A stretch of 63,593 nt of DNA, filler included, from Craspedostauros australis (Eukaryota): assembly GCA_030167865.1 (NCBI GenBank). It is 15 parts of 15 records of this genome, joined end to end, with 100 filler letters (N's around TTAATTAATTAA, not from the genome) between each part and the next. Parts side by side here need not be neighbours in the genome. Positions count along the whole stretch, not along the records: positions 10,383 to 19,273 come from JALAGF010006514.1; 14 more parts are not named here. One strand, given 5' to 3'. Position numbers and translations under genes: made by a program. Below, one piece after another: positions 440 to 60,696 of the stretch (positions are counted from its first letter, which is position 1; each line of letters opens with the position of its first letter). The notes under the pieces are model-generated. The model saw only the letters and a program-made list of their open reading frames with translations, ran no database searches and was not told the DNA's origin.

Positions 440-1141
440 GGATACATATTCAGTCCCTTTCCGCGCAAGCCATCCATTTGTTTGAAACATAGTTTATCAA
501 TGACACAGGAGCGTTCCGATCCATACAAGCCCTCCATTTGGTTCCGACGGCGTTCATGACAGGGACAGATTCGCTCTTGTCCGTACAAGCCCTCCATTTA
601 GTGGAAAGAGCGTTTATCAATGACACAGGAGCGTTCCGATTCATACAAGCCCTCCATTTGGTTCAAANNNNNNNNNNNNNNNNNNNNNNNNNNNNNNNNN
701 NNNNNNNNNNNNNNNNNNNNNNNNNNNNNNNNNNNNNNNNNNGCACAGATCTATCAATAGCACAGATCAGTTCTTATCCATACAAGCCCTCCATTTGGTT
801 GAAAAACATTCACTACCGGATAAGATTGTTTCTTATCCGTATAAGCCATCTGCTTGGTTCATAGAGCATTCACTACCGGATAAGATTATTTCTTATCTGT
901 ATAAGCCCTCTGCTTAGTTCATAGAGCATTCACTACCAGATAAGATTATTTCTTATCCGCATAAGCCATCTGCTTATGTTCATAGAGCATTCACTACCAG
1001 ATAAGATTATTTCTTATCCGCATAAGCCATCTGCTTATGTTCATAGAGCATTCACTNNNNGATAAGATTATTTCTTATCCGCATAAGCCATCTGCTTATG
1101 TTCATAGAGCATTCACTACCGGATAAGATTTGTTCTTATCA
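440..1141. repeat. 60-61 bp tandem minisatellite with dyad motifs
   Basis: CAAGCC(C/A)TCCATTT recurs at 466, 526, 586, 646 and 783. It grades into a unit with CACTAC at 811, 871, 931, 992, 1053 (partly N) and 1114. Later units contain GATAAGA-TTATT-TCTTATC and CATAAGC-CATCT-GCTTATG inverted repeats. Confidence 0.9.
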
Positions 1142-4858: not shown

Positions 4859-4958
4859 NNNNNNNNNNNNNNNNNNNNNNNNNNNNNNNNNNNNNNNNNN
4901 NNTTAATTAATTAANNNNNNNNNNNNNNNNNNNNNNNNNNNNNNNNNNNNNNNNNNNN
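4859..4958. other. Artificial scaffold-joining linker N44-TTAATTAATTAA-N44 (first of 14)
   Basis: Identical 12-mer with stops in all six frames at 4903, 10327, 19318, 21787, 25101, 27981, 35831, 40536, 42415, 45902, 50281, 54992, 58587 and 60641, always embedded in N runs. Confidence 0.98.
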
Positions 4959-6134: not shown

Positions 6135-6936
6135 TGTCGAGATTTATATGCGTGTATATGTCAAGATGTACGTGTATATGTGCATCGTTCACCCGTTATT
6201 CTCTCATACGTACTTGGACGGTACAACTACACTAGTGTAGATAGTATGATGTGATTTGTCAGAATCACAGTGAAAATGGAAACACACGAAAATGAGCAGG
6301 ATTTCTGGAGGAAATTTGGAATCAACGATTTCTGAGAGAATCCGGAATATCGTCCGTCCAACCATCAATGGAAACGTATGGAATCGAGCGAAGCTCGAGG
6401 TGCCTCCCAACTAAACCCCAGATGACGATATCATCTGACAGACCATCGCATCATTGATGGAACGTGACATCTGGAGAGCAGAAGGATGACAGCTGACGTT
6501 GACAAGATGTCATCATGTCACCACGTCGACATCTGTCTCCATGTCAGAAGCAGAAGGTAAAGATTCGATGACTGAAGGGCATCGAGATCATGGATGCATG
6601 AAGAGGAGTTCAAGTGGAAAGTACTCAGGGAGTAGGAACCAGTAGTGAACAAACAGAGTATCAAATGTGGAGTACGCATCAAAATGGAGTATCATGTAAC
6701 ATGAACATGCAACATTGAGGAGAGAGAGAATACGAATAGCAGCGAGAGAGCATCTTGCATACCAACTCATAGTCGGAGACCTAATCTACAAGACAGACAG
6801 ACGCGCTGAGAGCATCGGGCAAGAGAACGGACACTGAGAGAATCCGAGTGCCAACAAAATGAAACAGCAAACAGATCGACTATCAACAACACCGTCTTCC
6901 ACGATCGTAGGCATCCAATCATGGAACTTGCCAACA
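6135..6936. mobile_element. Solo LTR, family A (~800 bp, TGTCGAGAT...CTTGCCAACA)
   Basis: TG..CA ends. Homologous to 14431-15221, 34403-35213, 35214-35786, 55048-55553 and 19862-19910. Flanks TGCATG / AGCATC look like a degraded 6-bp TSD. Confidence 0.85.
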
Positions 6937-6989
6937 AGCATCACAAAGAGATGCAGTGGAAGCTCGAATGAACAAAAGATTTGCAAATG

Positions 6990-7210
6990 TGGTGGAATAT
7001 AGTACTAGAGCTCTATCGTAAAATCACAAGGGGTGAGCAAAAGCAAAGTACCATGCCAGGATTCGAACCCGGAACCTCAGTTAGAATTACTGGTGCTCTA
7101 CCATTGAGCTACAGGCGATGCGATTGCTGAACCGAACACAAGTGAAATTTACAGATAGTGGGGGCTACGGGAGTAACGTACTTAGCACTATTCGGTTTTG
7201 TGCTGATACA
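6990..7210 (-). mobile_element. Short LTR-like element (family T) carrying a tRNA-like cassette
   Basis: Reverse-complement homolog of 16057-16275. Ends ...GTGCTGATACA exactly as the partial copy at 19374-19458 does, with unrelated flanks. Confidence 0.8.
7048..7118 (-). tRNA. tRNA-like (pseudo-tRNA, TTC at the anticodon position) inside family T element
   Basis: Minus strand reads GCCTGTAGCTCAATGGTAGAGCACCAGTAATTCTAACTGAGGTTCCGGGTTCGAATCCTGGCATGGT. A box, D arm, B box and T arm are present. The acceptor stem is bulged and the anticodon loop lacks U33. Confidence 0.7.
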
Positions 7211-7499
7211 TAGTCGCAGTGGGAGACAAGTCAAAAGCAAACGCAAACGCATCCACTGAGAAAAAACTGTAACTTGGATGAGACCAAGCTTGTTGGACAG
7301 TAGACACACAGTAGCATGGTTTTGTTGACGCAGCAGGAGACGAAACCAGAACAAGCAAGTACTGTGATGCACGTGGAGGTCCGCCAATGCCCGGAACAGG
7401 CGCACATGGAAGAACGGAGCAAATGACACCAGCCACAACACGATGAATTGTTGTGACACTCATAATTTGTGTCGTGCATACGTGTTCGAGGAAGTCAAA

Positions 7500-9885: not shown

Positions 9886-10799
9886 GGCTCCTGAATTGGG
9901 ATTGACAGCATGATGATGATGATGATGGCCATGCTGCGCGGGAAGAACGCCTGTGGAGTGCAGCCTTGGTCACTCATGAATACCACATAGGTACATGTCC
10001 ACATCAGTGAATAAATGAGAAGTTTATGAAATCGGTGTAGAGTAGGCTAGCTCGCGCAAACGAGTACTATGGTGTTGTAGATAGGTTTCGTTGGCTGGGG
10101 ACCTCAGCGACAGGGAGGCAAGGGACTGCCTACCAGCGCAACAATGGCGCTGTGCTCGGTGCGAAACTGTCATGGGTCGATGTCCTCATCTCCACGTTCA
10201 TCAACACAAACAAAGAAACAAACAAACAAGTCCGAACCGAAAACATGAAAGGCCGCCAAACGCCCTCCCGACATGTATCGAANNNNNNNNNNNNNNNNNN
10301 NNNNNNNNNNNNNNNNNNNNNNNNNNTTAATTAATTAANNNNNNNNNNNNNNNNNNNNNNNNNNNNNNNNNNNNNNNNNNNNGCAAATGGATGTGCCCTT
10401 CCAACAGAGCAGGAGCAATAATGGTCTACAAAGCAAGCAACTGGAGAGGTCGGTTTGCAAGATGAAGGGATACAACAGAACTGGAGACGAAGATGCTTGA
10501 CTCTTGCCTGCTCGATCCCATAGCAAGCAAGTACAGCAACAGTTAGACAACACCATGCATATATTATGCAAGATCTATGTCATTCATATGCTCTGCAGTG
10601 AGTTGTTTAGTCAGATATGCAACAAAGCCAACATATCACTGCTGATGGTCAAAAAGCACGGGAAAAGTACNCAGTATTTCTCTTGTTGGTCNTGNAAGCA
10701 CAGGAGACAATTGAGGTTTTGGGTGTTGTTGTTTTTNGTTTTACTCGATTGAGTCNGCTGTCTTTCGGTTCCGTGTTAATTTACCACACTAATTTTGAG

Positions 10800-14430: not shown

Positions 14431-15221
14431 TGTTGGCAAGTTCTGCTCACGGTAACCTACGATCGTGGAAGATGGTGTTGGTTGATAGTCGTCTGTTTGC
14501 TATTTCATTACTTGGCTACTCCGATGCTCTCGGTGTACGCCCGTTCTCTTGCCCGATGCTCTCGGTGATTCGATCTGTTTCGTAGATTCAGTCTCCGACT
14601 ATGAGTCGGTACGCGAGATTCTCTCGCTCCTCTCTGTATTCTCTCTCTCTCTCTCTCTCTCTCTCTACATCGTGTGCTCGTGCCACACGATACTCCGTGC
14701 TCGATGCATACTCCGCATTCGACACTCCGTTTGTTCAGTACTGGTTCCTATTCCATGAGTACTTACCATTTGAAGTTCACCTTCAGTATCCATGATCTTC
14801 ATGGGTCATCGGATCTTTGCCTCCTGCTCTGACTTNNNNNNNNNNNNNNNNNNNNNNNNNNNNNNNNNNNNNNNNNNNNNNNNNNNNNNNNNNNNNNNNN
14901 NNNNNNNNNNNNNNNNNNNNNNNNNNNNNNNNNNNNNNNNNNNNNNNNNNNNNNNNNNNNNNNNNNNNNNNNNNNNNNNNNNNNNNNNNNNNNNNNNNNN
15001 NNNNNNNNNNNNNNNNNNNNNNNNNNNNNNNNNNNNNNNNNNNNNNNTCCAGAAATCTTGCCCCTTTTCGTGTGTTCCGTTTCCCCTGTAATTCTGACGA
15101 ATCACAGTATACTATTGACACGAATGTAGTTGTACCGTCCAAGTGCGTATGAGAGAATGACGGGTGAACGATGCACATATACACGTACATCTCGACATAT
15201 ACTCACATGTACATCTCGACA
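14431..15221. mobile_element. Solo LTR, family A (opposite orientation to 6135-6936), perfect 6-bp TSD TGGAGA
   Basis: TGGAGA|TGTTGGCAAG...CATCTCGACA|TGGAGA (TSD at 14425-14430 and 15222-15227). Internal N gap. Confidence 0.9.
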
Positions 15222-16056
15222 TGGAGAGAGGATTTGAACTCATCTTCCATGCTGTGACCATTGAGGTTGGGATCAGCAGGGAAGATGTGAGCTGATGCAT
15301 CCTGGCAGTATGGGTGGAAGACGGCATGGCCAGGGGTATGTGTGAAACGGAATGGCACTGTCCCTAATAGTTTATCATCGTGCACCTGGAATGGAAAGTT
15401 GTTGTGCGGGTCGCCATTGGAGGCAATCAACTCCTTGGCGGCAATGGGCATCTGTATTTCGTTCCCTGCACGACCTCATGCTATAATGCTACCAACAGAT
15501 ACCAAGAGCATTGCGAACAGTGTTGGCGTTTTAATTGCCCATGGACCAATTTCAGAGGTCGTACATGGGGGAGCATCCAATTTGCAGTGAGATCTTGACA
15601 CGGTCGCAAGTTCGCAGCCACCTTGGTTGCGGAGTCTGGGACCCAGTGCGCTCAAAGGTCGCCAACTTGTTGTTGCAAGGCGGCTCAAAGCCATTTCAAT
15701 CGGCACTCCTTCCTTGCAGCTGTTGGAACCTTGATGACATTGTTGGTTGCAGGAGTATCAAACCTTGTTTTGGCACTTGGTGTCCTGGGTGTGCATTGTG
15801 CATGGTCCCTGGCCACTGCCGCAATACTGGTGGCAGGATGAAGAGGTGCAGCTGCAAGGAATCATGCACACTGCCTCCTGCCTCCTCTTCTTGTTCCCGT
15901 TCCGCTGCTGCTGGAGTTGTCATGCCCTCTGTTGCGGATTGAATCGGTACTGCTGATCCTGATGTAATCGAGGATCCTGGTGCTGCCAAAGATATCGGGA
16001 TTTGTACCAGTCAAGGCGCACAGTTCATGCGGGAACCATGTGGCACTGAAGACCAC

Positions 16057-16275
16057 TCTATCAGCACAAAACTGAATAGTGCTAAGTACGTTACTCCCGT
16101 AGCCCCCACTATCTATAAATTTCACTTGTGTTCGGTTCAGCAATCGCATCACCTGTAGCTCAACGGTAGAGCACCAGTAATTCTTACTGAGGTTCCGGGT
16201 TCGAATCCCAGCATGGTACTTTGCTTTTGCTCTCCCCTTGTGATTTTTACGATAGTGCTCTAATACACTCCAACA
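16057..16275 (+). mobile_element. Short LTR-like element (family T) carrying a tRNA-like cassette
   Basis: T(C)TATCAGCAC...CTCCAACA; the other two copies give TGTATCAGCAC for this end. Inserted in the decayed gene. Confidence 0.8.
16149..16219 (+). tRNA. tRNA-like (pseudo-tRNA, TTC at the anticodon position) inside family T element
   Basis: A box TAGCTCAACGG 16156-16166, D stem GCTC/GAGC, stem CAGT/ACTG around AATTCTT, B box GGTTCGAATCC 16198-16208. Upstream TATAAA 16114 and CAA 16141; downstream TTTT 16225. Confidence 0.72.
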
Positions 16276-19200: not shown

Positions 19201-19373
19201 GCAAAAACGTGGAAACACCCAAATGGGCCAAATGACCAACAACGCGAGGAATCAACGCAACACCGAATCTGCCNNNNNNNNNNNNNNNNNNNNNNNNNNN
19301 NNNNNNNNNNNNNNNNNTTAATTAATTAANNNNNNNNNNNNNNNNNNNNNNNNNNNNNNNNNNNNNNNNNNNN

Positions 19374-19458
19374 GCTGATCCGAACACAAGTGAAATTTAT
19401 AGATAGTGGGGGCTACGGGAGTAACGTACTTAGCACTATTCAGTTTTGTGCTGATACA
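19374..19458 (-). mobile_element. Partial family T element (scaffold edge)
   Basis: Near-identical to 7126-7210, ending GTGCTGATACA. Confidence 0.8.
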
Positions 19459-19861
19459 GGCCGTCTCACACTTCGTGACATTGGCCTTCCTCCAGTACTC
19501 TTTTCTCATTGGTTGCGACATGGGGGCTGTAGTCGCTTGTATCGTGATGTTGGTCACGATTCCAACATCCCCGCCCCCTGCGACATACACGTGTGATTGG
19601 CATTCCTGCATTGAGGTCACGGACACCATAGTCCGGTTCGCATTCGGCACGTGTCGTTCTCCATCACAAAACACGTGCAGCTCACATTTTCCTGTCACAA
19701 AGATCCACAGGTGAGAGTTGCGGTAATGTATCATATCATGACATTCGACTCCTGACCCTTGACTTATTGGGAGGTGCGGTAATGTAGCATTCCACAATGC
19801 TCAACTCCACACTCTTGGGAGGTGCGGCAATTCGGTGTTTCACAACACCCGATTCCTGACA
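19459..19861. mobile_element. Partial LTR-like repeat, family B
   Basis: Homologous to 22181-22526. Both copies end CACCCGATTCCTGACA and then diverge. Confidence 0.7.
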
Positions 19862-19910
19862 AACACCATCTTCCACGATCGTAGGTTACCGTGAGCGGAA
19901 CTTGCCAACA
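19862..19910. mobile_element. Terminal 49 bp of LTR family A
   Basis: AACACCATCTTCCACGATCGTAGGTTACCGTGAGCGGAACTTGCCAACA matches the reverse complement of 14431-14479. Confidence 0.85.
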
Positions 19911-21400
19911 ATTCCGCGCCAGACTCGTGGCATGCGGATACTCGCAAATCTCAGGAGTCGACTTCTCAGCGCACCACGCACCGGTGATACATGACGCAAC
20001 CTACCGCATCATGCTCACCATGAAGATGATATTGAAGCTAGATAGCATCATCGTCGACTTCGAGACAGCATTTCTGCACGGTGACCTCGACGAGGAGATC
20101 TACATGCAATGCCCGAAAGGCATGAAGCACGAAACCGACGAATGTCTGCTGCTCAAGAAAACCATCTACGGACTCGTGCAGAGTGCCAGACAATGGAATA
20201 AGAAGCTTGTCGACATCCTATTCAAACTGGGGTTCAGGCAGAGTGAGGTAGACCCATGCCTACTGATTCGGAATCAGGAAGGGCAACTGCTTTTAATCGG
20301 CACCTATGTGGACGATTGTCTCTGCATTGGAGAAAAGCAGGAACTGGAGAAGCTTGTGAAGGATATCCGAGCGGAACGGTTTGGGGTCAAAGTGGAGGAA
20401 GATCTTGAAGACTACCTAAGCTGCAAGATCATATTCAACNNNNNNNNNNNNNNNNNNNNNNNNNNNNNNNNNNNNNNNNNNNNNNNNNNGAAGCACGAAA
20501 CCGACGAATGTCTGCTGCTCAAGAAAACCATCTACGGACTCGTGCAGAGTGCCAGACAATGGAATAAGAAGCTTGTCGACATCCTATTCAAACTGGGGTT
20601 CAGGCAGAGTGAGGTAGACCCATGCCTACTGATTCGGAATCAGGAAGGGCAACTGCTTTTNNNGAATCAGGAAGGGCAACTGCTTTTAATCGGCACCTAT
20701 GTGGACGATTGTCTCTGCATTGGAGAAAAGCAGGAACTGGAGAAGCTTGTGAAGGATATCCGAGCGGAACGGTTTGGGGTCAAAGTGGAGGAAGATCTTG
20801 AAGACTACCTAAGCTGCAAGATCATATTCAACCATGACAAGACAAACTGTTGGGTGAACCAACCACACATCCTCAAGAACATCATCGATACGTTTGGGAG
20901 CGATGTGCTGAAACTACAACGATACGGAACACCAAGAACACCAGGGCAGGGCATCCAAAGGAACAGCGATGCACCCAAGGTGGACGAACAGCGACACAGC
21001 AGATACCGAAGTGGAGTAGGCATGCTGCTATACCTGGTGAAACACTCTCGACCTGTCATCGCCAACGCAGTGCGAGAACTGACCAAGGTGTTGGACGGAC
21101 CAACAGCCGCAGCATACAAGGAAATGCTACAGGTCATGAAGTTCGTATGGGACACGAGAGAGTATGGACTGAAGATGAAACCAAGTCCACTGACTAACGA
21201 TGCATGGAAGATTGCAATATTCACCGACAGCGAATTCGCGGGTGACAAGGACAATCGCATCAGCGTAGGAGGGCACATCGTCCTTCTACAAGGAGTGCCG
21301 ATCATATGGAGATCAAAGGCACAACGCAGCGTAACACTCAGCTCAACAGAAGCAGAGTACGTCGCACTGTCAGAAGCAGGGAAAGAAATCCGCTTTATTA
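19911..21400 (+). mobile_element. Ty1/copia RT-RNase H fragment
   Basis: RARLVACGYSQ, DFETAFLHG, KTIYGLVQSA, YVDD, TDSEFAGD, LSSTEAEYVA. Internal duplications lie around the N gaps. Truncated at both ends by other sequence. Confidence 0.93.
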
Positions 21401-21842
21401 GCGCACGCTAAATCTCTAACAATAGCGACACCCGTCGACCAATCAGAAATCTCCACTTTTCTTACCTTTTCCGTTCCGAANGGAAATTTTGGTCGAAAAT
21501 CCGTTGTGTCAGATTTGTGTCGCATTTCGCGTCGCAAGAATCNTTTTCCCTCAATCACAGATCCAAAAATGTCGTGGAAATTGATTTCTTGCCAAGATGA
21601 GCCAATCTGCCCAATCAGGACAGACTTGGATCTTGGGTGTGACACGTGCGAATCTTGACCTGACCTTCTCAAGTGAATACGATCAATCGTGTGATCGTAC
21701 TACTAGCAACATCGTGAGAAGACGTAATTTACAACACGGGCTNNNNNNNNNNNNNNNNNNNNNNNNNNNNNNNNNNNNNNNNNNNNTTAATTAATTAANN
21801 NNNNNNNNNNNNNNNNNNNNNNNNNNNNNNNNNNNNNNNNNN

Positions 21843-22526
21843 CAGGCATCCATCTTGCATTCATCGCAAATTCATCATAGACATGCATGCACCACCGAGT
21901 ACCCCATGTTCGTGCACATTAGCACGGTGTCCTTCGCTGATAGTTTCCATGCCGTAGACATCAACCAGTCGTAGGCATGACACAGATCGGCTCAATCGAT
22001 CAGATCACGACATCTCATGTGTTGCGGGAACGCCTTGGTTGGGAGTTCGTTCAGCTCCTCAACCATCTCACATCTCCGATCATCTTCACATCTCCGATCG
22101 ACTCCGATCGTTTCTCTCTGTTTCTTCGCCGATCACTTCACCGGCTTCCTGGAGGTTCCTCATACCAGGTTCGTTCACAAGCCATCTCACACTTCGTGAT
22201 GTTTGCGTTCTCCCAGTACTCTTTTCTTATTGGTTGCGACATGGGGGCCGTAGTCGCTCGAATCGTGATGTTGGTCACGATTCCAACATCTCCGCCCCCT
22301 GCGACATGCACATGTGATTGGCATTCCTGCATTGGAGTCATGAACGCCAAAGTACGGTTCGCATTCGGCACNTGTCATTCTCCACCGCATGAACCGTGCA
22401 GCTCACATTTTCTGTGTCACAATGATCAAACGTGGGAGTTGCGGTAATGTAGAATATCCCGACGTTTGGTTCCTTACTCTTGGGAGGTGCGGCAATATGG
22501 TGTTTCAGAACACCCGATTCCTGACA
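21843..22526. mobile_element. LTR-like repeat, family B (left end in gap)
   Basis: Homolog of 19459-19861, ends ...GATTCCTGACA. Extent left of 22180 is inferred. Confidence 0.6.
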
Positions 22527-25056: not shown

Positions 25057-25156
25057 NNNNNNNNNNNNNNNNNNNNNNNNNNNNNNNNNNNNNNNNNNNN
25101 TTAATTAATTAANNNNNNNNNNNNNNNNNNNNNNNNNNNNNNNNNNNNNNNNNNNN

Positions 25157-27936
25157 GTTCGCGATGTCTGGTCGCGAGTGCTTGATGAGGAAGAGTAGCA
25201 TACCGACGCCTTGGCGGTATTCGGCATGTTCTTCCGGTCCAACCTTCTGCAGTCCGTTATCTTCGGATGGTCGTACGATGATTTGACCCGGGGTTCCCGG
25301 TGTCGCATAGCGTTGCATCTTCTCAACCTTGGTTCCGAACTCTTCGATGAGATGTCGGATGAGGTGTGGTTGACGCAATGTCGCTCTAGTCTTGTCATGG
25401 TTCAGTTCGATGTTGCAGCTGAGGTAGTCTCCGAGTCCGCGCTCGATTGTCACCTTGAATTTTCTGCCTTGGATGTCCTTTAGGAATGTCTCCAGTGCCT
25501 TGGAGTCTCCGCAGCAGAAGCAATCGTCCACGTAGATGGCCACGATCGTGCTTCCTTCGTTCGTCTTCCTGTAGAACAGGCACGGGTCTGCTGCGCTCTG
25601 TTCGAAGTTGATATTCTTGAGGGTCGACACCAACATCTTGAACCANNNNNNNNNNNNNNNNNNNNNNNNNNNNNNNNNNNNNNNNNNNNNNNNNNNNNNN
25701 NNNNNNNNNNNNNNNNNNNNNNNNNNNNNNNNNNNNNNNNNNNNNNNNTCGAGGTCTCCGTGTAGGAATGCCGTTACGACATCGACGAGTGCGCAGTCCA
25801 TCTTCTTGATCAGCATGATCACCATCATGACTCGATAAGTCACGTCATGAATTACGGGTGAGTAGTGTTCTTGGAAGTCCACTCCTGCGATTTGTGAATA
25901 GCCACATGCAACGAGCCGCGCTCGATGTGTGCCATCACGTTTCAGCTTGAAGACCCATTTGCATTTGCAGCATCTGCGGCCGCGTGGGATGGCGTCTCGT
26001 TTGATCTTGCTGTACACTTTGCGTGTNTCCATGGAGTCGAACTCCTTCTTGATGGCTGCTCGATATCCCTTTCGATGGATAGGGTCTGGATGATTGAAGG
26101 CTCCATCGAATGTCGTTGGTTCGATGTGCTTCTCTGGTTCTTTGTTCTTGTCCTGCATCGACAATCCGATGTCGATCGCTGGTGATTCGGTAATGATTGC
26201 ATTCATTCCGTACAGTCCTGTTGTGCTATAGTGAGTGATCTCAATCTCTCCTTCATCTGCAATTTCTTCGTCATCTGTAGTTTCGTTGTTGGAGTCGTCG
26301 ACCATTTCGTCGCTGAGTTCATCACTGTCTTCATTGGATGATGGATCGCTTTCATATCCTTCTTCCTTTCGACCTCGTTCGTTGAAGTCTGCGAGCTCAC
26401 GCAGAGCTCTAGGAATACTCTTTCCTGTAGTCGGTTTGGGATTAGCTTCTCCCTTCCTGCCTCGTGCTTCGTGACGTCGGATCCTCTCCTTTCTATCTAT
26501 ATATCACGTTTGCTTGGCTTACTCGGTGGAGGTCTGGATGGTGTACCTTGTGTAGACCTCGCTGGTGTGTTCGGAGGAGTAACGCCTGTGTCATCGTCGG
26601 CTTCGTCACTGGATGGTGTGATCTCGTCATCCTCATGATTGGATTCGCTCCGATCTTCCTCGTCGTTATGAACCAGTTGAGTTACTACTCCGTCGTCCTC
26701 ATTATCCTCATCGTCGCTGTCCGATAGGATGTAGTACCTGTTGCTGTCAGCGAAAGATACTCTCTTCGNTTCCGATGTTTGACGCGTTGCCGTCCTTGGC
26801 GTTGCTCCCTTCCGTCCGATGGTTGTGAAGCCGTCTGCGTCCGTTGTTCCTGTTTCGTTGGATATGTTCGGTGCTGGTGCCCAGCCACAGAACTGTCCGT
26901 ATGATTGGTTGAGCCACTTGATGTCGCGTGAGCAGACGAGTGACTTGGTCGATGGCCTGTACATGTTATAGACCCCTGATGCGTGTTGGTGTGCATATCC
27001 GATGAACACCATCTCTTCTCCTCTATTCTTGAGTTTGGCGNNNNNNNNNNNNNNNNNNNNNNNNNNNNNNNNNNNNNNNNNNNNNNNNNNGCCTCGTGCT
27101 TCGTGACGTCGGATCCTCTCCTTTCTAGCTATGTCACGCTTGTTTGGCTTGCTCGGTGGAGATCTGGATGGTGTGTCATGTGTAGACCTCGCTGGTGTGT
27201 TCGGAGGAGTAATGCCTGTGTCATCGTCGGCTTCGTCGCTGGATGGTGTGATCTCGTCATCCTCATGATTGGATTCGCTCCGATCTTCCTCGTCGTTATG
27301 GGTTAGTTGGGTTACTGTTCCATCGTTCTCATTATCCTCATCGTCGCTGTCCGATAGGATGTGGTACATGTTACTGTTAGCGAAAGATACTCTCTTTGCT
27401 TTCGATGCTTGACGCGTTGCCGTCCTTGGCGTTGCTCCCTTCCGTCCGATGGTTGTGAAGCCGTCTGCGTCCGTTGTTCCTCTTTCGTTGGATATGTTCG
27501 GTGCTGGTGCCCAGCCACGGAACTTTCCGTATGATTGGTTGAGCCACTTGATGTCGCGTGAGCAGACGAGTGACTTGGTCGATGGTCTGTACATGTTGTA
27601 GACCCCTGACGCATGTTGGTGTGCATATCCGATGAACACCATCTCTTCTCCTCTATTCTTGAGTTTGGCGGTAATCCCGCCGTAGGTAGTCTTCACAACA
27701 CCCACCTCTCCGAAAGTGCGGAGTNCATCCGCNTATGGTGGATCGTTGCCNAAGAATTGTCGATGTGGTGACTCCTTTTGATTCTTCGCTACGGTGATGT
27801 TGGCGATGGCGGTGGCAGTGCTAGCAGCTGCTGCCCACAGGCCATGTCTATGCTCTTCGTCGAGCTGTGCTCCGTTGAGCATGGAGCGGATCTTGGTGTA
27901 GAGGTACGCGAACTTGCGTTCTACTCTACCGTTCTG
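25157..27936 (-). mobile_element. Ty1/copia pol fragment (integrase C-terminus, SH3-like region, acidic linker, RT)
   Basis: LWAAAASTAT, LRTFGE, KLKNRGEEMVFIGYA, KWVFKLKRDGTHRARLVACGYSQ, DVVTAFLHG, YVDD, SRPDIAN. Two diverged copies of the linker region flank a gap. Confidence 0.92.
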
Positions 27937-28036
27937 NNNNNNNNNNNNNNNNNNNNNNNNNNNNNNNNNNNNNNNNNNNNTTAATTAATTAANNNNNNNN
28001 NNNNNNNNNNNNNNNNNNNNNNNNNNNNNNNNNNNN

Positions 28037-29210
28037 ACAAGGTCAACGACGACGAGTGCACCAACAACTGCAAACTCCCAACTTGCGGTGACGGCATCAA
28101 GCAGGACGGAGAGCAGTGCGACGACGGCAACAGCGTCAATAACGATGACTGCACCAACAACTGCAGACTCCCACGCTGCGGTGACGGCATCAAGCAAGCC
28201 AACGAGCAGTGCGACGATGGAAACGAGGACAACACCGATGGCTGCACTAACGCCTGCAAGCTCAATCAATGCGGCGATTTTTACAAGCAAATCCACGAAG
28301 AGTGCGACCTTGGGCCAAACAATAACAACGGCCCATACACCCGCTGCAAGACCGACTGCAAGCTCCCACGCTGTGGTGACAACCATGTCAGCTACACACA
28401 GGGTGAGGGCTGCGATCTCGGAGAACAGAACTCCAATGGTCCATACACTGAATGCAACGAGAACTGCAGGATCCCGAGCTGCGGCGATGGCCTTGTCAAC
28501 AAGAGGCTCGGCGAGGAGTGCGATCGTGAAGGACAGAACTCTAACGGCCCCAACGCCCTGTGCACCAAGGATTGCAAGCTTCCGGTGTGCGGCGACGGTA
28601 TCAGGCACACGGGTGAGGAATGCGATGACGGAAACAACGACAACAATGATGGCTGCACCAACAACTGCACGAGGGCGCGACAGCTGCACCAACCAATGCA
28701 AGAAAGCACGATGTGGCGACGGCATCCTGCAAGGCGACGAAGAGTGCGACAACGGCAACAATAACAACAATGACAGCTGCAGGAACGACTGCAAGAAAGC
28801 ACGATGTGGCGATGGTATCATCCAACCCGGTGAGGAATGCGACGACGGCAACAACAACAACAACGACGACAGCTGCACCAACCAATGCAAGAAAGCGCGA
28901 TGTGGTGATGGGTTCAAAGCCCCCAACGAAGAGTGCGACGACGGCAACAACAACAACTTCGACAGCTGCACCAATCAATGCAAGAAATCACGATGCGGCG
29001 ACGGCATCGTCGGACTTCATGAACAGTGTGATCTCGGACCTCACAACTCCAATTCCCCCGGTGCACCGTGCACAACCAAGTGCCAGAAGCCAAGATGCGG
29101 TGATGGCACCCATCACAATGGAGAGGAGTGCGACGACGGTAACACGAACAACTACGACAGCTGCACCAACAATTGCAAGACAGCACGATGTGGCGACGGT
29201 ATTATCAGAT
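28037..29210 (+). pseudogene. Cys-rich tandem repeat protein fragment (DUF4215 / Myxococcus-type CGDG...EECDDGN...C...C), frameshifted and truncated
   Basis: About 14 repeats such as CGDGIIQPGEECDDGNNNNNDDSCTNQCKKAR. The reading frame switches near 28680. The repeat stops abruptly into AT-rich sequence after 29210. Confidence 0.75.
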
Positions 29211-29528
29211 CAAAATTATATATTCACCTTAGTCTATGTCTAATCTTGTTCTCCATAGAATGCGTCAGGTCACACATGAGACTTTTGGTCATGAGCTGTT
29301 TTCTCTTTCTCTGTTGACCTCATTTCCCACAACCCTCGATGCACCTCAGATACCTGTCTTGGTGTCTGAGGATGGTAGCGAGCTAATACATGGACGTCAG
29401 GCCCTGCCTGCCATCGTCCTTATGTGTACATGAACATGTATGTCTGAATCCCTGTGAATCCACCTTCACAGGGCATGTCTACTGTCTTGTTGAGTGAATG
29501 TATCTGAGCATCTTGGCTCAGATACTGT

Positions 29529-34402: not shown

Positions 34403-35786
34403 TGTTGAGATGTACATGCGTGTATATGTCAAGATGTACGTATGTGTATGTGCATCGCTCACCCGCTATTCTCTTATACTCACATACGAACGGTACAACT
34501 ACATTCGTGTCGTAGTGAACTGTGATTTGGCAAAATCACACTACAAATGGAACACACGAAAATGAGCAGGATTTCTGGAGGAAATCTGTAAACAACGATT
34601 TCTGAGAGTATCAGGAACATCGTCCGTCCATCCATCCATGGGAACGTATGGCACCAAGTGAAACTTGGTATACGTCCCAACTAAACCTCAAATGACGATA
34701 TCCTCACCGAGACGTCGACATCATCGACGGAACGTGACATCTGGAGAGCAGAAGGACGACAACTGACGTTGACAGGATGTCATCATGTCACCACGTCGGC
34801 ATCTGTCTCCATGTCAGGAGCAGAAGGTGAAGATCAGATGACGGAAGTACATCAAGATCATGTAGCTACGAAGAGAGGTTCAAGTGGCAGGTACTCATGG
34901 AGTAGAAGCCAGTAGTGAATGAACGGAGTGTCGAATGCGGAGTACGCATCGAGCACGAAGTGTCGCGTAGTGCAAACACGCGACATCAAGAGAGAGAGAA
35001 TACGAGCAAGGGCGAGAGAGTATCTTGCATACCGACTCATGTCGGATCGAACCAGCCAATCTGTGAAGAGACAGACGCGCCGAGAGCATCGGGCGAGACT
35101 ACGGAGACACCGAGAGGATCGGAGTGCTTCAACTAATGAAATAGCAAACAGAAACAGTAACAACCATCATTGTCTCCACGATCGTAGGCTCCCAATATCG
35201 GGACTTGCCAACAAGATGCACGTGTATATGTGCATCGTTCACCCGTTATTCTCTTATACTCACGTACGAACGGTACAACTACACTCGTGTCGATAGTATA
35301 CTGTGATTCGTCAGAATTACAGCGGAAATGGAACACACGAAAAGGAGCAAGATTTCTGGAGGAAATTTGCAATCAACGATTTCTGAGAGAATTAGAATCA
35401 TCGTCCGCCCATCCATCAATGGTACCAAGAGAATCTTGAGGTACTTCCCAACTAAACCTCAGATGACGATATCATCTGACAGACTGCTGCATCACCAATA
35501 GAACGTGACATCTGGAGAGCAGAAGGACGCCTACTGACGTTGACAGGATGTCATCGTGTCACCACGTCGACATCTGTCTCCAAGTCAGAGCAGGAGGCGA
35601 AGATCCGATGACCGAAGGGCATCAGCATCATGGATACAGAAGGTGAACTTCAAATGGTGAGTACTCATGGAGTAGGAGCCAGTACTGAATGAACGGAGTG
35701 TCGAATGCGGAGTACGCATCGAACACGGAGTATCGTGTGCGACGAGTACACGATGTTGAGAGAGAGAGAATACAGAGAAGAGCGAG
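34403..35786. mobile_element. Two abutting LTR family A copies (full 34403-35213; 5'-clipped 35214-35786)
   Basis: TGTTGAGATG...CTTGCCAACA is directly followed by AGATGCACGTGTATATG, i.e. LTR A sequence starting ~30 nt into the unit. Confidence 0.85.
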
Positions 35787-51620: not shown

Positions 51621-52491
51621 TCTGTTCTGCTCTACTCTGCTCTACTCTGCTCGCACTTGGCTTGGCTCTATTTCACTTGGTTCACTCTACTCGTGGGGTG
51701 CTTGACTTGACTTGGCTTGACTCTTTTCGACTTGACATGACTCTAATCGAGTCGAGTTCCATCCACGGTTTGAGCACAAATAGCCGAGCGCGAGCTGACA
51801 TGCCCACTTGATCCGGCTGATGTGATGATGCCAGCATTCCTTCGTATTGGTGTCGTTGATGCGTTGCCTCCTATGCCGAATCGCATCGCGGCACATCACA
51901 CCACATCGGTTGATGGCCGCAGCAAGGTTCTGTCGACATCAACGAGATCCTTTCCTCGCACTGTGCTGGGCCGATCCTTGTGCAAGTACACAACACACGC
52001 CAGTACCGCACACGCTCGTCCCGATACTAGTTCTCACACAAAGCTGTGCCACATGAGCAGGGTAGGAACATCTAATCAAACGACAGTTTGAGAAGTCTTT
52101 TTGTGTGGACGTTGTTTTGTGAACACATCTACATCATTGTGGAAGAAACCTGATTGGTTGCATCCATTCGTGCCTACTAATTGGTGCAAGTGCGTCATGA
52201 GAATGGCGAAGCTGTGCGACAGCAATGACGAACGCAGCAGCACATAGAGCACAGCAACTCAACTTCGTATTTCTCGTATGTCATTCGCAAAAACGGTTCC
52301 CATGACAGCGATGGATCGGAATCCGAATACTTCCTGCTGACAAAAGCATTCCCAAACCAAGAACAAATCAATCAGACCACGCAGGTAGTACCGGAACATT
52401 CACAGTTGTTGTCGAAGGTATACTGGTACTCTCTACCAGTGTACATGATGGTACGTGCGATGTCGGTGCTTAGCTGCTTTGCTATTTTCCA

Positions 52492-53229
52492 TCACAAGTC
52501 AAATTGATCGGCAAAAGGTGCGATGGCTTTTTTGGTAAACCCATCGGTGGCAATTCTGGCCTTCTTCATCTTGCGCAAGACACCGCCCACATGATCAATC
52601 GTCTCCTTGTCCGACAATATGGGTGACGCCACGACCGCCCGCAGCACGGCATTGTAGGTCAGAACGGTGGGCCTGAGATGCCGGTTGGCGTTCATGGCTC
52701 CTAGCAGCTCGAGCGCCCGATCGGCCGCCTGCGTCTTGCGGCTGCGCGCCCAGGCCGCGATGACGGAGCTGTACGTGATGGTGGTGGGACGCAGATCGTG
52801 GCTCTTGTCGGATTGGCGGTACCGCTGCTGCAGGGTGGTCAAGAGGTCATCGGCACGTTGGGCGCCGTGCGGTCGGGCCGAGCTGGCCTTGGCCCAGCAA
52901 TTGATGAGGGTGTTGAAGCTGACCGTGTCGGGACGGTACGCGATGATGCCCTCTTCGTGGTACCTATCCATCTGTTCGAACAGCAATTCGGCGCGCTCCG
53001 GCGCATCGGGGGAACGCGACTTGGACCATGCGTCCAACGCCGTGTTGAAGGATATACGATCGGGCAGGACCGCGACGGTTGTGCTATCTGCCTGGTCATC
53101 CTGCAGCGCGCTTTGCATCGTGCCTTCAATCATATCCTGCAGCAACGATTCCGCCTTCTCGGCCTCACCCACTTTGGCGTAAGCTTTGAGGACCGCGTTG
53201 TACGTGATGGTATTGGGCTCCAGCAGATC
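52492..53229 (-). CDS. Pentatricopeptide repeat (PPR) protein, terminal exon
   Basis: Five PPR-like units (PNTITYNAVLKAYAK, PDRISFNTALDAWSK, PDTVSFNTLINCWAK, PTTITYSSVIAAWAR, PTVLTYNAVLRAV). Preceded by a CA-rich tract and TCACAG acceptor at 53230. Confidence 0.85.
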   Translation of the reverse strand, partial: DLLEPNTITYNAVLKAYAKVGEAEKAESLLQDMIEGTMQSALQDDQADSTTVAVLPDRISFNTALDAWSKSRSPDAPERAELLFEQMDRYHEEGIIAYRPDTVSFNTLINCWAKASSARPHGAQRADDLLTTLQQRYRQSDKSHDLRPTTITYSSVIAAWARSRKTQAADRALELLGAMNANRHLRPTVLTYNAVLRAVVASPILSDKETIDHVGGVLRKMKKARIATDGFTKKAIAPFADQFDL

Positions 53230-53440
53230 CTGTGATGATCGGGAGACGATACGGATGTGTTGTGTGTGTGTGTGTGATGTGAGATTATTATGGATACTCT
53301 GATTGTCTCCGCAGAGGCTGTGAACATGGGATTTGCTGCTGCTCCGTCTGTCATCCGACCGTGTACCAACANNNNNNNNNNNNNNNNNNNNNNNNNNNNN
53401 NNNNNNNNNNNNNNNNNNNNNNNNNNNNNNNNNNNNNNNN

Positions 53441-54947
53441 GGCACATTGCGACCCATAATGAGGTCGATGTGCCTGAAGAACAGTGTGACGGGCGTCTGT
53501 TTCGTGCAGATATCAGATGCGTTGAGCTCCGACGGCACGTCGGGATACGCTAAGAGATCGCGCTCCACCCAGTCAAGGACTGCAAACTCGCGGATTGCGA
53601 TATGTCGCGAGTTTCGGGTAGGCTGACTTGCTGTCGTCATCAGCCTTGCGCCGCGATTGTCCTCGAAGATGAGTGTGGCGAACTGTTGCTCCACGCCAAT
53701 CTCNNNNNNNNNNNNNNNNNNNNNNNNNNNNNNNNNNNNNNNNNNNNNNNNNNNNNNNNNNTCCGCCTCGGTGCTGCTCATGGACATGGTGGGCTGAACC
53801 CTGGTCTTCCATGCGATGGCACCTCCACCAAACATTTTCACCACGCCAGTAATGGACCGGCGGTGGCGAATATCCACGCCCCAGTCGGCGTCGACAAAGC
53901 CATACAGTGTGGCAGCGCCAACAGGTCGTGTCTGGTTGGCATCATGCACCTCGGTGTCAGGCGGTGAAAGCGGCCTTGGGGCTGGAATGTCAGGTAGATC
54001 CGCCAGCGGTCGGACTCGCCAGTAGGTGATGCCGTAGTCGCGAGTGCCCGCCACGTACCGAATGAGATACTTCACACCTTCGAAGTGCACCGCCGCAGGA
54101 CTGGTGGAGAACTGAGAAAGCTTGACCACTGGAAACGCAATGTCCGGTCGGCAAGAAATCATTGCCCAGATGAGCTCCCCAATGGCTTGTCGGTACTTGA
54201 ACTTGAACGTTGCAGCGATACTCTCGCGTTCCGCATCCGTGGCCGGTACTTCGGCGTTGTCAAGCGTCTTGACATACGTGTTCTCCGACCGCATAGGGAG
54301 CCGCTGAGTTGCCTTCATGCCTTGCCATTCGTATCGCTCAAGCATTTTGTCGATGTAGGATGTGCAATGAACACGCACATAATGTTGCGTTTGTGCAATG
54401 TCCAGACCATTGTAGTGCACCATCAGACCCTGACGAGTGATCGGTTGGAAGAGCCGCTTGTCCAGCATGTCGCAGAACTTGTCGAAGACGGTCTTGTTGA
54501 TCGCTGCCACAGCAAAGTCATCAACCTGTCGCAGCACAAACACCTTAGTACCATCAACGGACCCTGTGTAGAGGCATGGAGCATGGGTCGTCGGTAGGAA
54601 CCGCAAGTCCTTGAGGATGCCATTGATGTGCTTGCTCCATAGTCGCGGTGCCTCCGGATGGCCCTGCAAATTCTTGTTGACAGGGATGACGTGGCCTCGC
54701 GGTATGTCGGTGCCAAACTTGTGACGATACCAGGACGCGTACTGATCATCAACGTTCATGAAGTACCGTTGCTTGCCTGCTGGCGCCTCCGCAAAAGCAT
54801 TGGTGACATCGGAGCCATACACCTTGAGTCCACGGACAGCAGCGACCGCCAAGAGGAGACGAAACTCAGTCAGATCCGGCGTCGCCGCGTATGTATGCCC
54901 AAAGACTCTTGCATGCCCGCCTCTGGTCGAACCATCGCACACCGCTC
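53441..54947 (-). mobile_element. Ty1/copia RT-RNase H fragment with RQVDD catalytic motif
   Basis: DVTNAFAEA, LQGHPEAPRLW, LRQVDDFA, YRQAIGELIW, FVDADW, SSTEA, FEDN, NASDICTK. Confidence 0.9.
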
Positions 54948-55047
54948 NNNNNNNNNNNNNNNNNNNNNNNNNNNNNNNNNNNNNNNNNNNNTTAATTAAT
55001 TAANNNNNNNNNNNNNNNNNNNNNNNNNNNNNNNNNNNNNNNNNNNN

Positions 55048-55553
55048 CAAGTGCGTATGAGAGAATAGCGGGTGAACGATGCACATATACACGTACATCT
55101 TGACATATACTCACATGTACATCTCGACACCTGTATTCATGATCTTGATGCCCTTCGGTCATTGGATCTTTACCTTCTGCTTCTGACATAGAGACAGATG
55201 TCAACATGGTGACATGTTGACATCCTGTCGACGTCAGTAGGAGTCCTTCTGCTCTCCAGATGTCACGTTCCATTGGTGATGCAGCAGCCTGTCAGATGAT
55301 ATCGTCATCTGAGGTTTAGTTGGGAAGTACCTTGAGATTCTCTTGGTACCATTGATGGATGGACGGACGATCTTCTAATTCTCTCAGAAATCTTGCTCAT
55401 TTTCGTGTGTTCCATTCCCCTGTAATTCTGACGAATCACAGCATACTATTTAAACGAATGTAGTTGTACCGTCCAAGTGCGTATGAGAGAATAGCGGGTG
55501 AACAATGCACATATACACGTACATCTCGACATACTCACATGTACATCTCGACA
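55048..55553. mobile_element. LTR family A nested in another LTR family A copy
   Basis: One LTR end ...CATCTCGACA at 55129 is followed by internal LTR A sequence running to a second ...CATCTCGACA at 55553. Confidence 0.85.
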
Positions 55554-60596: not shown

Positions 60597-60696
60597 NNNN
60601 NNNNNNNNNNNNNNNNNNNNNNNNNNNNNNNNNNNNNNNNTTAATTAATTAANNNNNNNNNNNNNNNNNNNNNNNNNNNNNNNNNNNNNNNNNNNN

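What the first reader, a model, noticed from the sequence alone, without database searches (positions are those of the whole stretch)
16057..16275. Mobile ~220-bp LTR-like element that carries a complete Pol III tRNA-like transcription unit (3 copies)
Seen: the same unit occurs at 16057-16275 (+), 6990-7210 (-) and partially at 19374-19458, each in unrelated flanks, with consensus ends TGTATCAG...CCAACA. Inside, in order, are TATAAA (16114), CAA (16141), a perfect A box (16156), a cloverleaf-like body with TTC in the loop, a perfect B box (16198) and TTTT (16225). The two T-arm 3' strands (CCCAG, CCTGG) are both single CpG-decay products of CCCGG, so the ancestor had a perfect T stem. The acceptor stem is bulged and U33 is absent in both copies: the promoter is kept but the decoding function is not. 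Established: non-autonomous LTR elements with small-RNA genes in the LTR exist (Cassandra, 5S; Helenus, tRNA-like). The tRNA sits internally and there is no A-rich tail, unlike a SINE. Inference: these are solo LTRs of a Pol III-transcribed TRIM-like parasite of the abundant copia elements; I know of no diatom example. Caveat: no clean TSD, PBS or PPT is visible at these copies.
Basis: partly seen in the sequence, partly recalled or inferred. Interest (0 to 1): 0.82.

Follow-up and report, generated by a model that had tools for sequence, protein, structure and literature searches.

The report
Mobile tRNA-like repeat in a diatom
A 207-base jumping-DNA unit that carries a worn-out tRNA gene with its promoter intact occurs three times in this diatom sequence and is most likely the leftover end-repeat of a small retrotransposon of a kind so far described only in fungi, animals and one plant.

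Summary
The repeat is real. There are two full copies (94.7% identical) and one copy cut by an assembly linker, all in unrelated flanks.

The unit runs TATCAG...CTA(A/G)TA: A is 16059-16265, B is 7208-7003 on the minus strand. With these ends both full copies have flanking target-site duplications. A has CACTC/CACTC. B has CTATG/CTATA, or ACTAT/ACTAT one register over. So it is an inserted mobile element with a 5-bp (possibly 4-bp) duplication, as integrases make.

It is not a working tRNA, not a SINE (box A starts 98 nt inside the unit, and there is no tail), and it fits no common MITE type.

Its layout matches the LTRs of Helenus, the tRNA-bearing TRIMs of Kojima 2024. It has about 90 nt upstream, then a tRNA-like body, a T4 run 16 nt after box B, and 37 nt to the end.

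I read the copies as solo LTRs of a Helenus-like element (confidence 0.5). No paired copy, PBS or PPT could be seen, the termini are TA..TA rather than TG..CA, and no genome, read set or metagenome copy was available. If the reading holds, this is a new member of a known kind, the first in stramenopiles.

The parts
16059..16265 (+). Copy A of the unit, complete (207 bp), TATCAG...CTAATA
   Evidence: BLAST and nhmmer; sequence read; ends set by homology with B and by the flanking duplication.
16054..16058 (+). Left target-site duplication of copy A (CACTC)
   Evidence: Identical to 16266-16270. Chance of a perfect flush 5-mer, allowing three registers, is about 0.003.
16266..16270 (+). Right target-site duplication of copy A (CACTC)
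16114..16119 (+). TATAAA in the upstream (U3-like) part. Copy B has TGTAAA, copy C has TATAAA.
   Evidence: alignment column 57. A role as a Pol III upstream element is inferred, not shown.
16148..16219 (+). Degenerate tRNA-like body. Box A from 16156 (TAGCT..CGG), box B 16198-16208 (GGTTCGAATCC). The loop TTC sits where the anticodon would be. The acceptor stem is mispaired.
   Evidence: Rfam RF00005 at 16154-16213, 29.2 bits. ARAGORN calls it only at an 80% threshold. Fold energy is no better than shuffles, z -0.66.
16225..16228 (+). First T4 run, 16 nt after box B; candidate Pol III stop. A second run lies at 16244-16248 (T5 in A, T4 in B).
   Evidence: Function inferred.
7003..7208 (-). 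Copy B of the unit, complete (206 bp). tRNA-like part at 7113-7054.
   Evidence: Rfam 33.6 bits.
7209..7213 (-). Left flank 5-mer of copy B (CTATG)
   Evidence: Four of 5 bases match 7002-6998. One register to the left, ACTAT/ACTAT matches 5 of 5.
6998..7002 (-). Right flank 5-mer of copy B (CTATA)
19374..19456 (-). Copy C: the first 83 nt of the unit, cut by the assembly linker at 19274-19373
22177..22526 (+). Paralogue (R3b) of the repeat that flanks copy C. It lacks the unit, so it is a possible empty-site homologue.
   Evidence: 19456-19783 <-> 22177-22496 at 83%. The homology stops within 1 nt of the unit's end. The other side of copy C is lost in the gap, so this cannot be completed.

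Best explanation
The unit is a solo long terminal repeat of a short non-autonomous LTR retrotransposon whose LTR contains a tRNA-derived RNA polymerase III transcription unit. That makes it a diatom counterpart of Helenus (the 'TRIMp3' class).

Proposed parts, in copy A coordinates:
- 16059 to about 16145 would be U3.
- The tRNA-like body from about 16146 to the T4 run at 16225-16228 would be R. Boxes A and B inside it recruit TFIIIC/TFIIIB, so that Pol III starts just upstream of box A.
- 16229-16265 would be U5.

Proposed life cycle: in a full element, an RNA running from R in the 5' LTR to R in the 3' LTR would be reverse-transcribed and inserted by the enzymes of an autonomous LTR element. 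This genome carries many copia-type elements. Insertion makes a 5-bp target duplication. Later LTR-LTR recombination leaves the solo LTRs seen here. The tRNA part keeps only its promoter and no longer decodes. The copies are decaying, largely by CpG transitions.

What is shown:
- The copies, their ends and the duplications.
- The tRNA derivation and the loss of tRNA features.
- The layout.

What is inferred:
- LTR status.
- Pol III transcription.
- The helper element.
For: 1. Insertion with short, sequence-unspecific duplications.
- A has CACTC/CACTC.
- B has CTATG/CTATA, or ACTAT/ACTAT one register over.
- A 4-nt core is perfect in both copies.
- The chance of a flush perfect 5-mer in three registers is about 0.003 per copy.
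- Five base pairs is the usual duplication of LTR elements (passages of Ou and Jiang) and of fungal and plant Helenus (Kojima abstract).

2. Box A begins at position 98 of the 207-nt unit. A Pol III start there leaves about 90 nt of the unit untranscribed. From general knowledge, only the LTR replication scheme restores such an upstream part in an RNA-mediated element.

3. The layout matches the Helenus LTR consensus sequences in part 1 of 10 of DataS1.
- Those LTRs are about 110-290 bp, with the tRNA-like part in the 3' half.
- In the four I measured by eye, a T-run lies about 16-22 nt after box B and about 13-38 nt remain to the end.
- Here the values are 207 bp, T4 16 nt after box B, and 37 nt to the end.

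4. [quoted passage not shown]

5. Rfam tRNA hits are at threshold, but the sequence is not a working tRNA. Kojima reports the same for most Helenus.

6. Copia-type reverse transcriptase ORFs are frequent in the window: 5 of the 17 long ORFs scanned.

7. TA..TA LTR termini are known. AtRE1 has them, and non-TGCA LTRs are mostly short copia LTRs. A few of the Helenus consensus LTRs I read also begin or end with TA.
Against: - No second copy in direct orientation near A or B, and no PBS or PPT next to any copy.
- Both complete copies stand alone, each with its own duplication. That is equally what a stand-alone 207-bp element would show.
- The termini are TA..TA, not the TG..CA of about 99% of LTR elements.
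- The ends form an imperfect inverted repeat (TATCAG / TATTAG, then CAC after a 2-nt shift), which is also compatible with a TIR element.
- There are only three copies, in 15 small assembly pieces. No genome, read set or metagenome copy could be obtained.
- There is no expression evidence of any kind.
- The unit shares no sequence with any other LTR or internal region in the window.
- The TATA-like box is mutated in copy B.
Confidence: 0.5

Rival explanations
1. The 207-bp unit is itself the whole mobile element. It would be a non-autonomous DNA (TIR/MITE-like) element, moved by a transposase that makes 5-bp duplications, which once captured a tRNA gene with its flanks. The Pol III module would be a passenger.
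For: - Both complete copies are stand-alone insertions, each with its own duplication.
- The ends are TA..TA with an imperfect inverted repeat.
- There is no paired copy, PBS or PPT in the window.
Against: - A 5-bp duplication with no sequence preference (CACTC, CTATG, and GCCTG at C) does not fit the common MITE sources. As I recall, those make TA, TWA, TTAA or 8-9 bp duplications.
- The inverted repeat is short and broken, no better than in ordinary LTR ends (one search shows similar ends in Helenus LTRs).
- No transposase ORF was seen. Pfam on 128 flank ORFs gave only PTPS, RVT_2 and two sub-threshold hits.
- The ordered set of TATA-like box, box A, box B and T-run at Helenus-like spacing would be coincidence.
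Confidence: 0.2
2. The unit is an LTR, but of an ordinary Pol II-driven LTR retrotransposon (autonomous copia or a large non-autonomous derivative). That element picked up a tRNA or SINE fragment, and the Pol III signals play no part in its life cycle.
For: - Kojima notes that 'not a few' Repbase LTRs contain tRNA-like pieces.
- Copia elements abound in the window.
- The 5-bp duplications fit.
- Short non-TGCA LTRs are typical of some copia elements.
Against: - No gag/pol ORF adjoins A or B.
- The tRNA-like part keeps both promoter boxes intact in both copies, while 5 of 10 A/B differences are CpG decay elsewhere in or around it.
- A T-run follows at the spacing seen in Helenus.
- With two copies, this conservation argument is weak.
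Confidence: 0.15
3. It is a tRNA-derived SINE mobilised by a non-LTR (LINE) retrotransposon.
For: - tRNA-derived Pol III promoter.
- Short length.
- Automated annotation has reported 'putative SINEs' in other diatoms (passages).
Against: - Box A starts 98 nt inside the unit, and all three copies share the same 5' end far upstream of any Pol III start.
- There is no A-rich or simple-repeat tail.
- The duplications are short and of equal length.
- No LINE-type reverse transcriptase was seen among the ORFs scanned.
Confidence: 0.03
4. It is not mobile. It would be a dispersed tRNA pseudogene family spread by segmental duplication, or an artefact of a fragmented heterozygous assembly.
For: - The window is 15 small pieces joined by linkers.
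- It holds many near-identical duplications beside gaps.
Against: - The flanks of the three copies are unrelated right up to sharp shared ends.
- The copies differ by 5%.
- Each complete copy has its own flanking duplication.
Confidence: 0.02

Closest known systems
Helenus (TRIM with tRNA-derived sequence in the LTR; 'TRIMp3'), Kojima 2024, PMC10886601. I read the abstract, Results 3.1-3.6, Discussion, figure legends and tables, and part 1 of 10 of supplementary DataS1.
   Same: - Short repeat of about 200 bp with a tRNA-like part in its 3' half.
- Box A (TRGCY..YGG) and box B (GGTTC) are kept.
- A T-run follows shortly after, then a short tail.
- 4-5-bp target duplications.
- The tRNA is non-functional.
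- It lives in a genome rich in copia elements (fungal Helenus are thought to depend on copia).
   Different: - LTR pairing, PBS and PPT, which define Helenus, were not seen here.
- The termini are TA..TA rather than the usual TG..CA.
- The host is a diatom (stramenopile), outside the listed range of fungi, six animal phyla and Selaginella.
- No sequence relation is expected or tested beyond the tRNA-like part.
Cassandra (TRIM with a 5S rRNA-derived Pol III unit in the LTR). Known to me from Kojima's account and from recall of Kalendar et al. 2008, which I did not read here.
   Same: Same principle: a small-RNA gene promoter inside an LTR, with the upstream part regenerated by the LTR cycle.
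   Different: Cassandra has 5S-type (box A/IE/C) rather than tRNA-type signals, is restricted to plants, and its transcripts have been shown experimentally. Nothing is shown here.
tRNA-derived SINEs (SINE2)
   Same: tRNA-derived internal Pol III promoter, small size, no coding capacity.
   Different: In SINEs the tRNA head is at the 5' end, and they have a 3' tail and variable duplications made by a LINE enzyme. Here the tRNA part is internal (from nt 90 of 207), there is no tail, and both copies have 5-bp duplications.
Non-TGCA (e.g. TA..TA, AtRE1) short-LTR copia elements, as described in the LTR_retriever preprint 10.1101/137141 (passages read)
   Same: LTRs that begin with T but lack TG..CA. 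They are short LTRs with 5-bp duplications and are mostly copia.
   Different: Those are autonomous plant elements without a tRNA-like module. Whether this unit belongs to any such element is unknown.
'Putative TRIM/LARD' (27 copies) and 'putative SINE' (13 copies) of Phaeodactylum tricornutum, Rastogi et al. 2018, PMC5859163 (passages and Table 2 read)
   Same: Small non-autonomous retroelement classes already annotated automatically in a diatom.
   Different: The passages I read mention no tRNA-like LTR. I could not compare sequences. Their supplementary tables were not opened and may bear on this.

Membership tests
Helenus / TRIMp3 | tRNA-derived sequence inside the repeat, with box A (TRGCY..YGG) and box B (GGTTC) | tested here: met
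   TAGCT..CGG (A) or TGG (B), and GGTTCGAATCC. Rfam tRNA scores 29.2 and 33.6 bits against a threshold of 29. Criteria taken.
Helenus / TRIMp3 | The repeat is an LTR: two direct copies flank a short internal region | tested here: not met
   No direct pair in the window. The window is only 59.8 kb of real sequence in 15 pieces, and the genome was not available. This is therefore absence in a small sample, not in the genome.
Helenus / TRIMp3 | PBS after the 5' LTR and polypurine tract before the 3' LTR | not testable with these tools
   Both complete copies are stand-alone with their own duplications, so no internal region is present to inspect.
Helenus / TRIMp3 | 4-5-bp target-site duplication | tested here: met
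   A matches 5 of 5. B matches 4 of 5, or 5 of 5 one register over. A 4-nt core is perfect in both.
Helenus / TRIMp3 | LTR termini 5'-TG..CA-3' | tested here: not met
   The termini are TA..TA. A few Helenus consensus LTRs in DataS1 part 1 also start or end with TA, so this feature is usual rather than strict.
Helenus / TRIMp3 | Pol III transcription from the LTR | not testable with these tools
   No sequencing run was listed. Kojima states this is unproven for Helenus too.
tRNA-derived SINE | The tRNA-related head lies at the 5' end of the element (element start = Pol III start) | tested here: not met
   Box A starts at unit position 98. All three copies share a 5' end about 90 nt upstream of the tRNA-like part.
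tRNA-derived SINE | 3' A-rich or simple-repeat tail | tested here: not met
   The unit ends ...GCTCTAATA / ...GCTCTAGTA.
MITE / TIR DNA transposon | Terminal inverted repeats of about 10 bp or more | tested here: inconclusive
   TATCAG versus TATTAG (5 of 6), then CAC after a 2-nt shift. Read by eye; no statistic was computed.
MITE / TIR DNA transposon | Duplication length and sequence typical of a transposase superfamily | tested here: inconclusive
   The 5-bp duplications have no common sequence. From recall, this fits none of the usual MITE sources, but I had no transposon library to test against.
Functional nuclear tRNA gene | Cloverleaf with a paired acceptor stem, U33 and a detector call | tested here: not met
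   ARAGORN finds 0 genes at default. Rfam aligns only positions 6-65 of 71. The loop reads AATTCT(T/A), without U33. Fold z-scores are -0.66 and +0.66.

The most novel reading that the evidence does not exclude
The 207-bp unit is the complete mobile element, not a leftover LTR. It would be an integrase-inserted, single-repeat retroelement with an internal Pol III unit that multiplies without a second LTR, PBS or PPT. It would then be neither a SINE, nor a TRIM, nor a MITE. A milder novel reading is that copia-type LTR elements of this diatom are drawn to these Pol III units. All three copies lie 0-837 bp from sequence of one copia LTR family, in the same orientation, as retrotransposons of yeast and Dictyostelium do at tRNA genes.
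Probability: 0.1. Interest if true: 0.8.

Novelty: new member of a known kind. Interest (0 to 1): 0.42.

Why it matters
- If the LTR reading holds, tRNA-promoter-bearing miniature LTR retrotransposons also exist in stramenopiles. That adds another independent origin to a class defined only in 2024.
- Diatom genome annotators would then have a concrete family that inflates tRNA or 'SINE' predictions.
- Dispersed Pol III promoters can act as TFIIIC sites, insulators or small-RNA sources, so a spreading family could matter for diatom genome regulation.
- As it stands, the practical result is smaller: a well-delimited mobile element with corrected ends and target duplications, ready to be searched for in the full assembly.

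Tried and rejected
SEARCHES FOR MORE COPIES (all blank)
- No whole genome is held for this window.
- No sequencing run was listed, and no RNA holder was listed.
- Exact-pattern scans with 20-21-nt stretches of the unit found 0 matches in metagenome contigs, prokaryote genome contigs and viral contigs.
- The scan's earlier findings held nothing on this genome or sequence.

IDEAS TESTED AND DROPPED
- The unit extends further 5'. Rejected: flank alignments equal shuffles.
- The downstream flanks are related. The match of one 12-mer with one mismatch was reached by 10 of 300 shuffles, so I treat it as chance.
- The unit is the leader of an internal region following an LTR, because its start resembles a primer-binding site and copy C abuts another repeat. 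Rejected: A and B have their own duplications and unrelated flanks.
- The unit and the neighbouring R2 LTR form one element. Rejected: the sequence beyond R2 differs between loci.
- A or B is the LTR of an intact element. Pfam on 128 flank ORFs gave PTPS and RVT_2 above the curated cut-off and two sub-threshold hits. The RVT_2 hit is in the copy C piece only.
- Removing the unit restores an ORF. The longest ORF across the junction is 94 aa at A and 145 aa at B, mostly on one side.
- The tRNA-like RNA folds unusually well. It does not.

WEAK FOURTH MATCH
- A match at 52361-52511(-) scores 10.5 bits, and 0 of 200 dinucleotide shuffles reach that score.
- It has many indels, a broken box B and no Rfam tRNA signal. 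I do not count it as a copy.

NOT READ
- Parts 2-10 of Kojima's DataS1, and its PDF figures S1-S3. These may list further end types or taxa.

Full report
WHAT THE WINDOW IS

The 63,593 bases are 15 small assembly pieces (1.8-8.9 kb) joined by 14 identical linkers of 44 N, a 12-base stop-in-all-frames word, and 44 N. There are many further gaps. Several stretches beside 50-N gaps are repeated at 92-98% identity, which looks like both haplotypes of a heterozygous genome having been kept.

The organism is a diatom. A pyruvate kinase ORF has its best named relatives in Cylindrotheca and Nitzschia at about 70% identity, with unnamed ones at up to 80%. Other ORFs carry PTPS, PPR, PAP_fibrillin and DUF4215 domains. 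Five of the 17 long ORFs scanned carry copia-type reverse transcriptase.

No whole genome is held for this window. Order and distance between pieces mean little. The three copies lie in three different pieces.

THE OBSERVATION

The repeat exists.
- Copy A (plus strand) and copy B (minus strand) align over 16059-16266 and 7208-7002 at 94.7% identity.
- Copy C aligns to A at 97.7% over 86 bases, then runs into a linker.
- A profile built from the three copies recovers them at E-values of 1e-76, 8e-78 and 4e-30.
- The 120 bases upstream of the three copies are no more alike than shuffled sequence.

The Rfam tRNA model scores 33.6 bits on B and 29.2 on A, against a curated threshold of 29. It aligns only model positions 6-65 of 71, so the outer acceptor stem does not fit.
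- ARAGORN reports nothing at default settings.
- At an 80% threshold it calls A as Glu(ttc). B gives a meaningless call only at 70%.
- The predicted folds are no more stable than shuffles, with z of -0.66 and +0.66.

The remark about CpG decay also holds. A and B differ by 10 substitutions and one indel, and five of the 10 substitutions are CpG to TpG or CpA. These include both changes in the T stem.

The ends are not TGTATCAG...CCAACA. The homology between A and B begins at TATCAG and stops at CTA(A/G)TA. With these ends the flanks are direct repeats.
- A has CACTC at 16054-16058 and again at 16266-16270.
- B has CTATG at 7213-7209 and CTATA at 7002-6998. One base to the left it has ACTAT and ACTAT.
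- A four-base core is perfect in both copies. In any single register, one copy is perfect and the other has one mismatch.
- I cannot decide between a 5-bp duplication with one later mutation and a 4-bp duplication.
- A perfect flush 5-mer in any of three registers is expected in about 0.3% of random flank pairs. Seeing it in both complete copies is not chance.

For copy C, the flank belongs to a repeat (R3) that has a second copy at 22177-22526 without the unit. The homology between the two R3 copies stops within one base of the unit's end. That is what an insertion into one R3 copy would give. The other side of C is lost in the gap, so this is only consistent, not proven.

The three target sites share no sequence. 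The unit is therefore a discrete inserted element of 206-207 bp.

WHAT KIND OF ELEMENT

It is not a SINE.
- Box A starts at unit position 98.
- All three copies share a sharp 5' end about 90 bases upstream of any plausible Pol III start.
- There is no tail.

It is not a working tRNA gene.

Neither complete copy is the LTR of an intact autonomous element. Of the 128 ORFs of 70 residues or more in the four pieces around the copies, only PTPS and one RVT_2 passed Pfam's curated cut-off. The RVT_2 lies in the piece of copy C, on the other strand.

Two classes remain: a solo LTR, or a stand-alone TIR-type element.

The following points favour an LTR.
- Short, sequence-unspecific 5-bp duplications are the mark of retroviral-type integrases. 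They are the rule for LTR elements (passages of the LTR_retriever preprint) and for fungal and plant Helenus.
- An RNA-mediated element whose promoter starts transcription 90 bases inside itself can only keep its upstream part through the U3-R-U5 scheme of LTRs. This rests on established retroelement biology.
- The layout matches the Helenus LTR consensus sequences in the first tenth of Kojima's DataS1. Those LTRs are about 110-290 bp, with the tRNA-like part in the 3' half. In the four I measured by eye, a T-run lies about 16-22 bases after box B and about 13-38 bases remain to the end.
- Here the unit is 207 bp, has T4 16 bases after box B, and has 37 bases to the end.
- Kojima's box criteria (TRGCY, YGG, GGTTC) are met.

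The following points count against it.
- No direct pair, PBS or PPT exists in the window.
- Both complete copies are solitary.
- The termini are TA..TA.
- The ends form a short broken inverted repeat.

TA..TA LTRs are known: AtRE1 has them, and non-TGCA LTRs are mostly short copia LTRs in which only the first T is invariable. A few Helenus consensus LTRs also start or end with TA. This weakens the objection but does not remove it.

My confidences are:
- 0.5 for a solo LTR of a Helenus-like, Pol III-driven miniature element;
- 0.15 for an LTR of a Pol II-driven element with a passenger tRNA piece;
- 0.2 for a stand-alone TIR-type element;
- 0.05 together for a SINE or an artefact.
The remainder is left open.

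HOW IT WOULD WORK (inferred)

TFIIIC would bind boxes A and B. Pol III would start near the CAA at 16141-16143 and stop at, or partly read through, the T4 at 16225-16228. In a full element the RNA would run from R in the left LTR to R in the right LTR. It would be copied and inserted by the enzymes of an autonomous LTR element, and recombination between the LTRs would leave the solo copies. None of this could be tested. No sequencing run was listed, so there is no evidence on expression either way.

SURROUNDINGS

All three copies lie close to sequence of one copia-type LTR family (R2, about 800 bp, starting TGTTGGCAAG), and in the same orientation.
- R2 lies 66 bp downstream of B (R2 at 6936-6135, minus strand).
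- R2 lies 837 bp upstream of A (R2 at 14431-15221).
- At C, about 50-60 bases of R2-like start (19910-19859) are followed by R3, right up to the unit.

R2 shares no sequence with the unit, and the regions beyond R2 differ between loci, so they are not parts of one element. With three loci in repeat-rich scraps this may be simple nesting. It could also hint that copia elements here integrate near Pol III units. I did not test this.

COMPARISON WITH WHAT IS KNOWN, AND NOVELTY

Helenus was defined in 2024 from fungi, six animal phyla and Selaginella. No stramenopile is listed. Four full-text searches found no diatom case:
- Helenus with LTR retrotransposon and tRNA-like;
- diatom with TRIM or solo LTR;
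- diatom with TE, SINE, MITE or tRNA-derived;
- TRIMp3.

Automated annotation has reported 'putative TRIM/LARD' and 'putative SINE' in Phaeodactylum and SINEs in two other diatoms. The passages I read do not mention tRNA-bearing LTRs. Their supplements were not opened.

The element works like a Helenus LTR. Membership is unproven, because the defining LTR pair, PBS and PPT were not seen. If confirmed it is a new member of a known kind in a new eukaryotic supergroup, which is of moderate interest. The corrected ends and the duplications make the claim easy to settle on the full assembly.

Noticed in passing
window 4859-4958, 10283-10382, 19274-19373 and 11 more: The window is 15 small assembly pieces joined by 14 identical linkers (44 N, a 12-base all-frame stop word, 44 N). 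Order and distance between pieces are not biological.
   Followed up: yes
window 1430-1665/1952-2187; 20124-20439/20490-20832; 26459-27040/27091-27670; 41647-41795/41846-41994; 62032-62567/62618-63154: Stretches on either side of 50-N gaps repeat each other at 92-98% identity. Most likely both haplotypes were kept by the assembler; they are not real tandem duplications.
   Followed up: partly
window 6135-6936(-), 14431-15221(+), 34403-35215 and 35212-35786(-), 55048-55555(+): A copia-type LTR family (R2) of about 800 bp starts TGTTGGCAAG and ends ..CGACA.
- One copy is preceded by a purine-rich run and followed by TGG..., which looks like a PPT and a PBS.
- Two copies abut head to tail at 35212-35215.
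- The copy at 6135-6936 looks like a solo LTR with a 4-of-5 flank repeat.

   Followed up: partly
window 6936-7208, 14431-16265, 19374-19910: All three tRNA-like units lie 0-837 bp from R2-type LTR sequence in the same orientation. This may be nesting in repeat-rich scraps, or a hint of integration near Pol III units. It was not tested statistically.
   Followed up: no
window 52361-52511 (-): A weak, gapped match to unit positions 54-174 scores 10.5 bits, and 0 of 200 dinucleotide shuffles reach that score. It lies just past the end of a PPR-domain ORF. Box B is broken and there is no Rfam tRNA signal. It is either an old relative or chance.
   Followed up: partly
window 19457-19861 and 22177-22526: Repeat R3 (about 400 bp, 83% identity) has an internal short repeat and is of unknown nature. 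In one copy, a stretch 13 bases past the point where the unit sits in the other copy begins with TGGTAT and looks like a primer-binding site.
   Followed up: no
window 764-1140 and 1700-2738: Two tandem arrays with periods of about 60 bp and 48 bp.
   Followed up: no
window 19885-21411(+), 25109-26503(-), 26497-27984(-), 52492-54999(-), 60653-62470(+): Copia-type reverse transcriptase (RVT_2) and integrase-SH3 ORFs, all truncated by piece ends or gaps. The ORF at 52492-54999 is an artefact that fuses a copia fragment and a PPR gene across N gaps.
   Followed up: no
window 27989-29317 (+): An ORF with repeated DUF4215 cysteine-rich modules and matching internal DNA repeats of about 93 bp.
   Followed up: no
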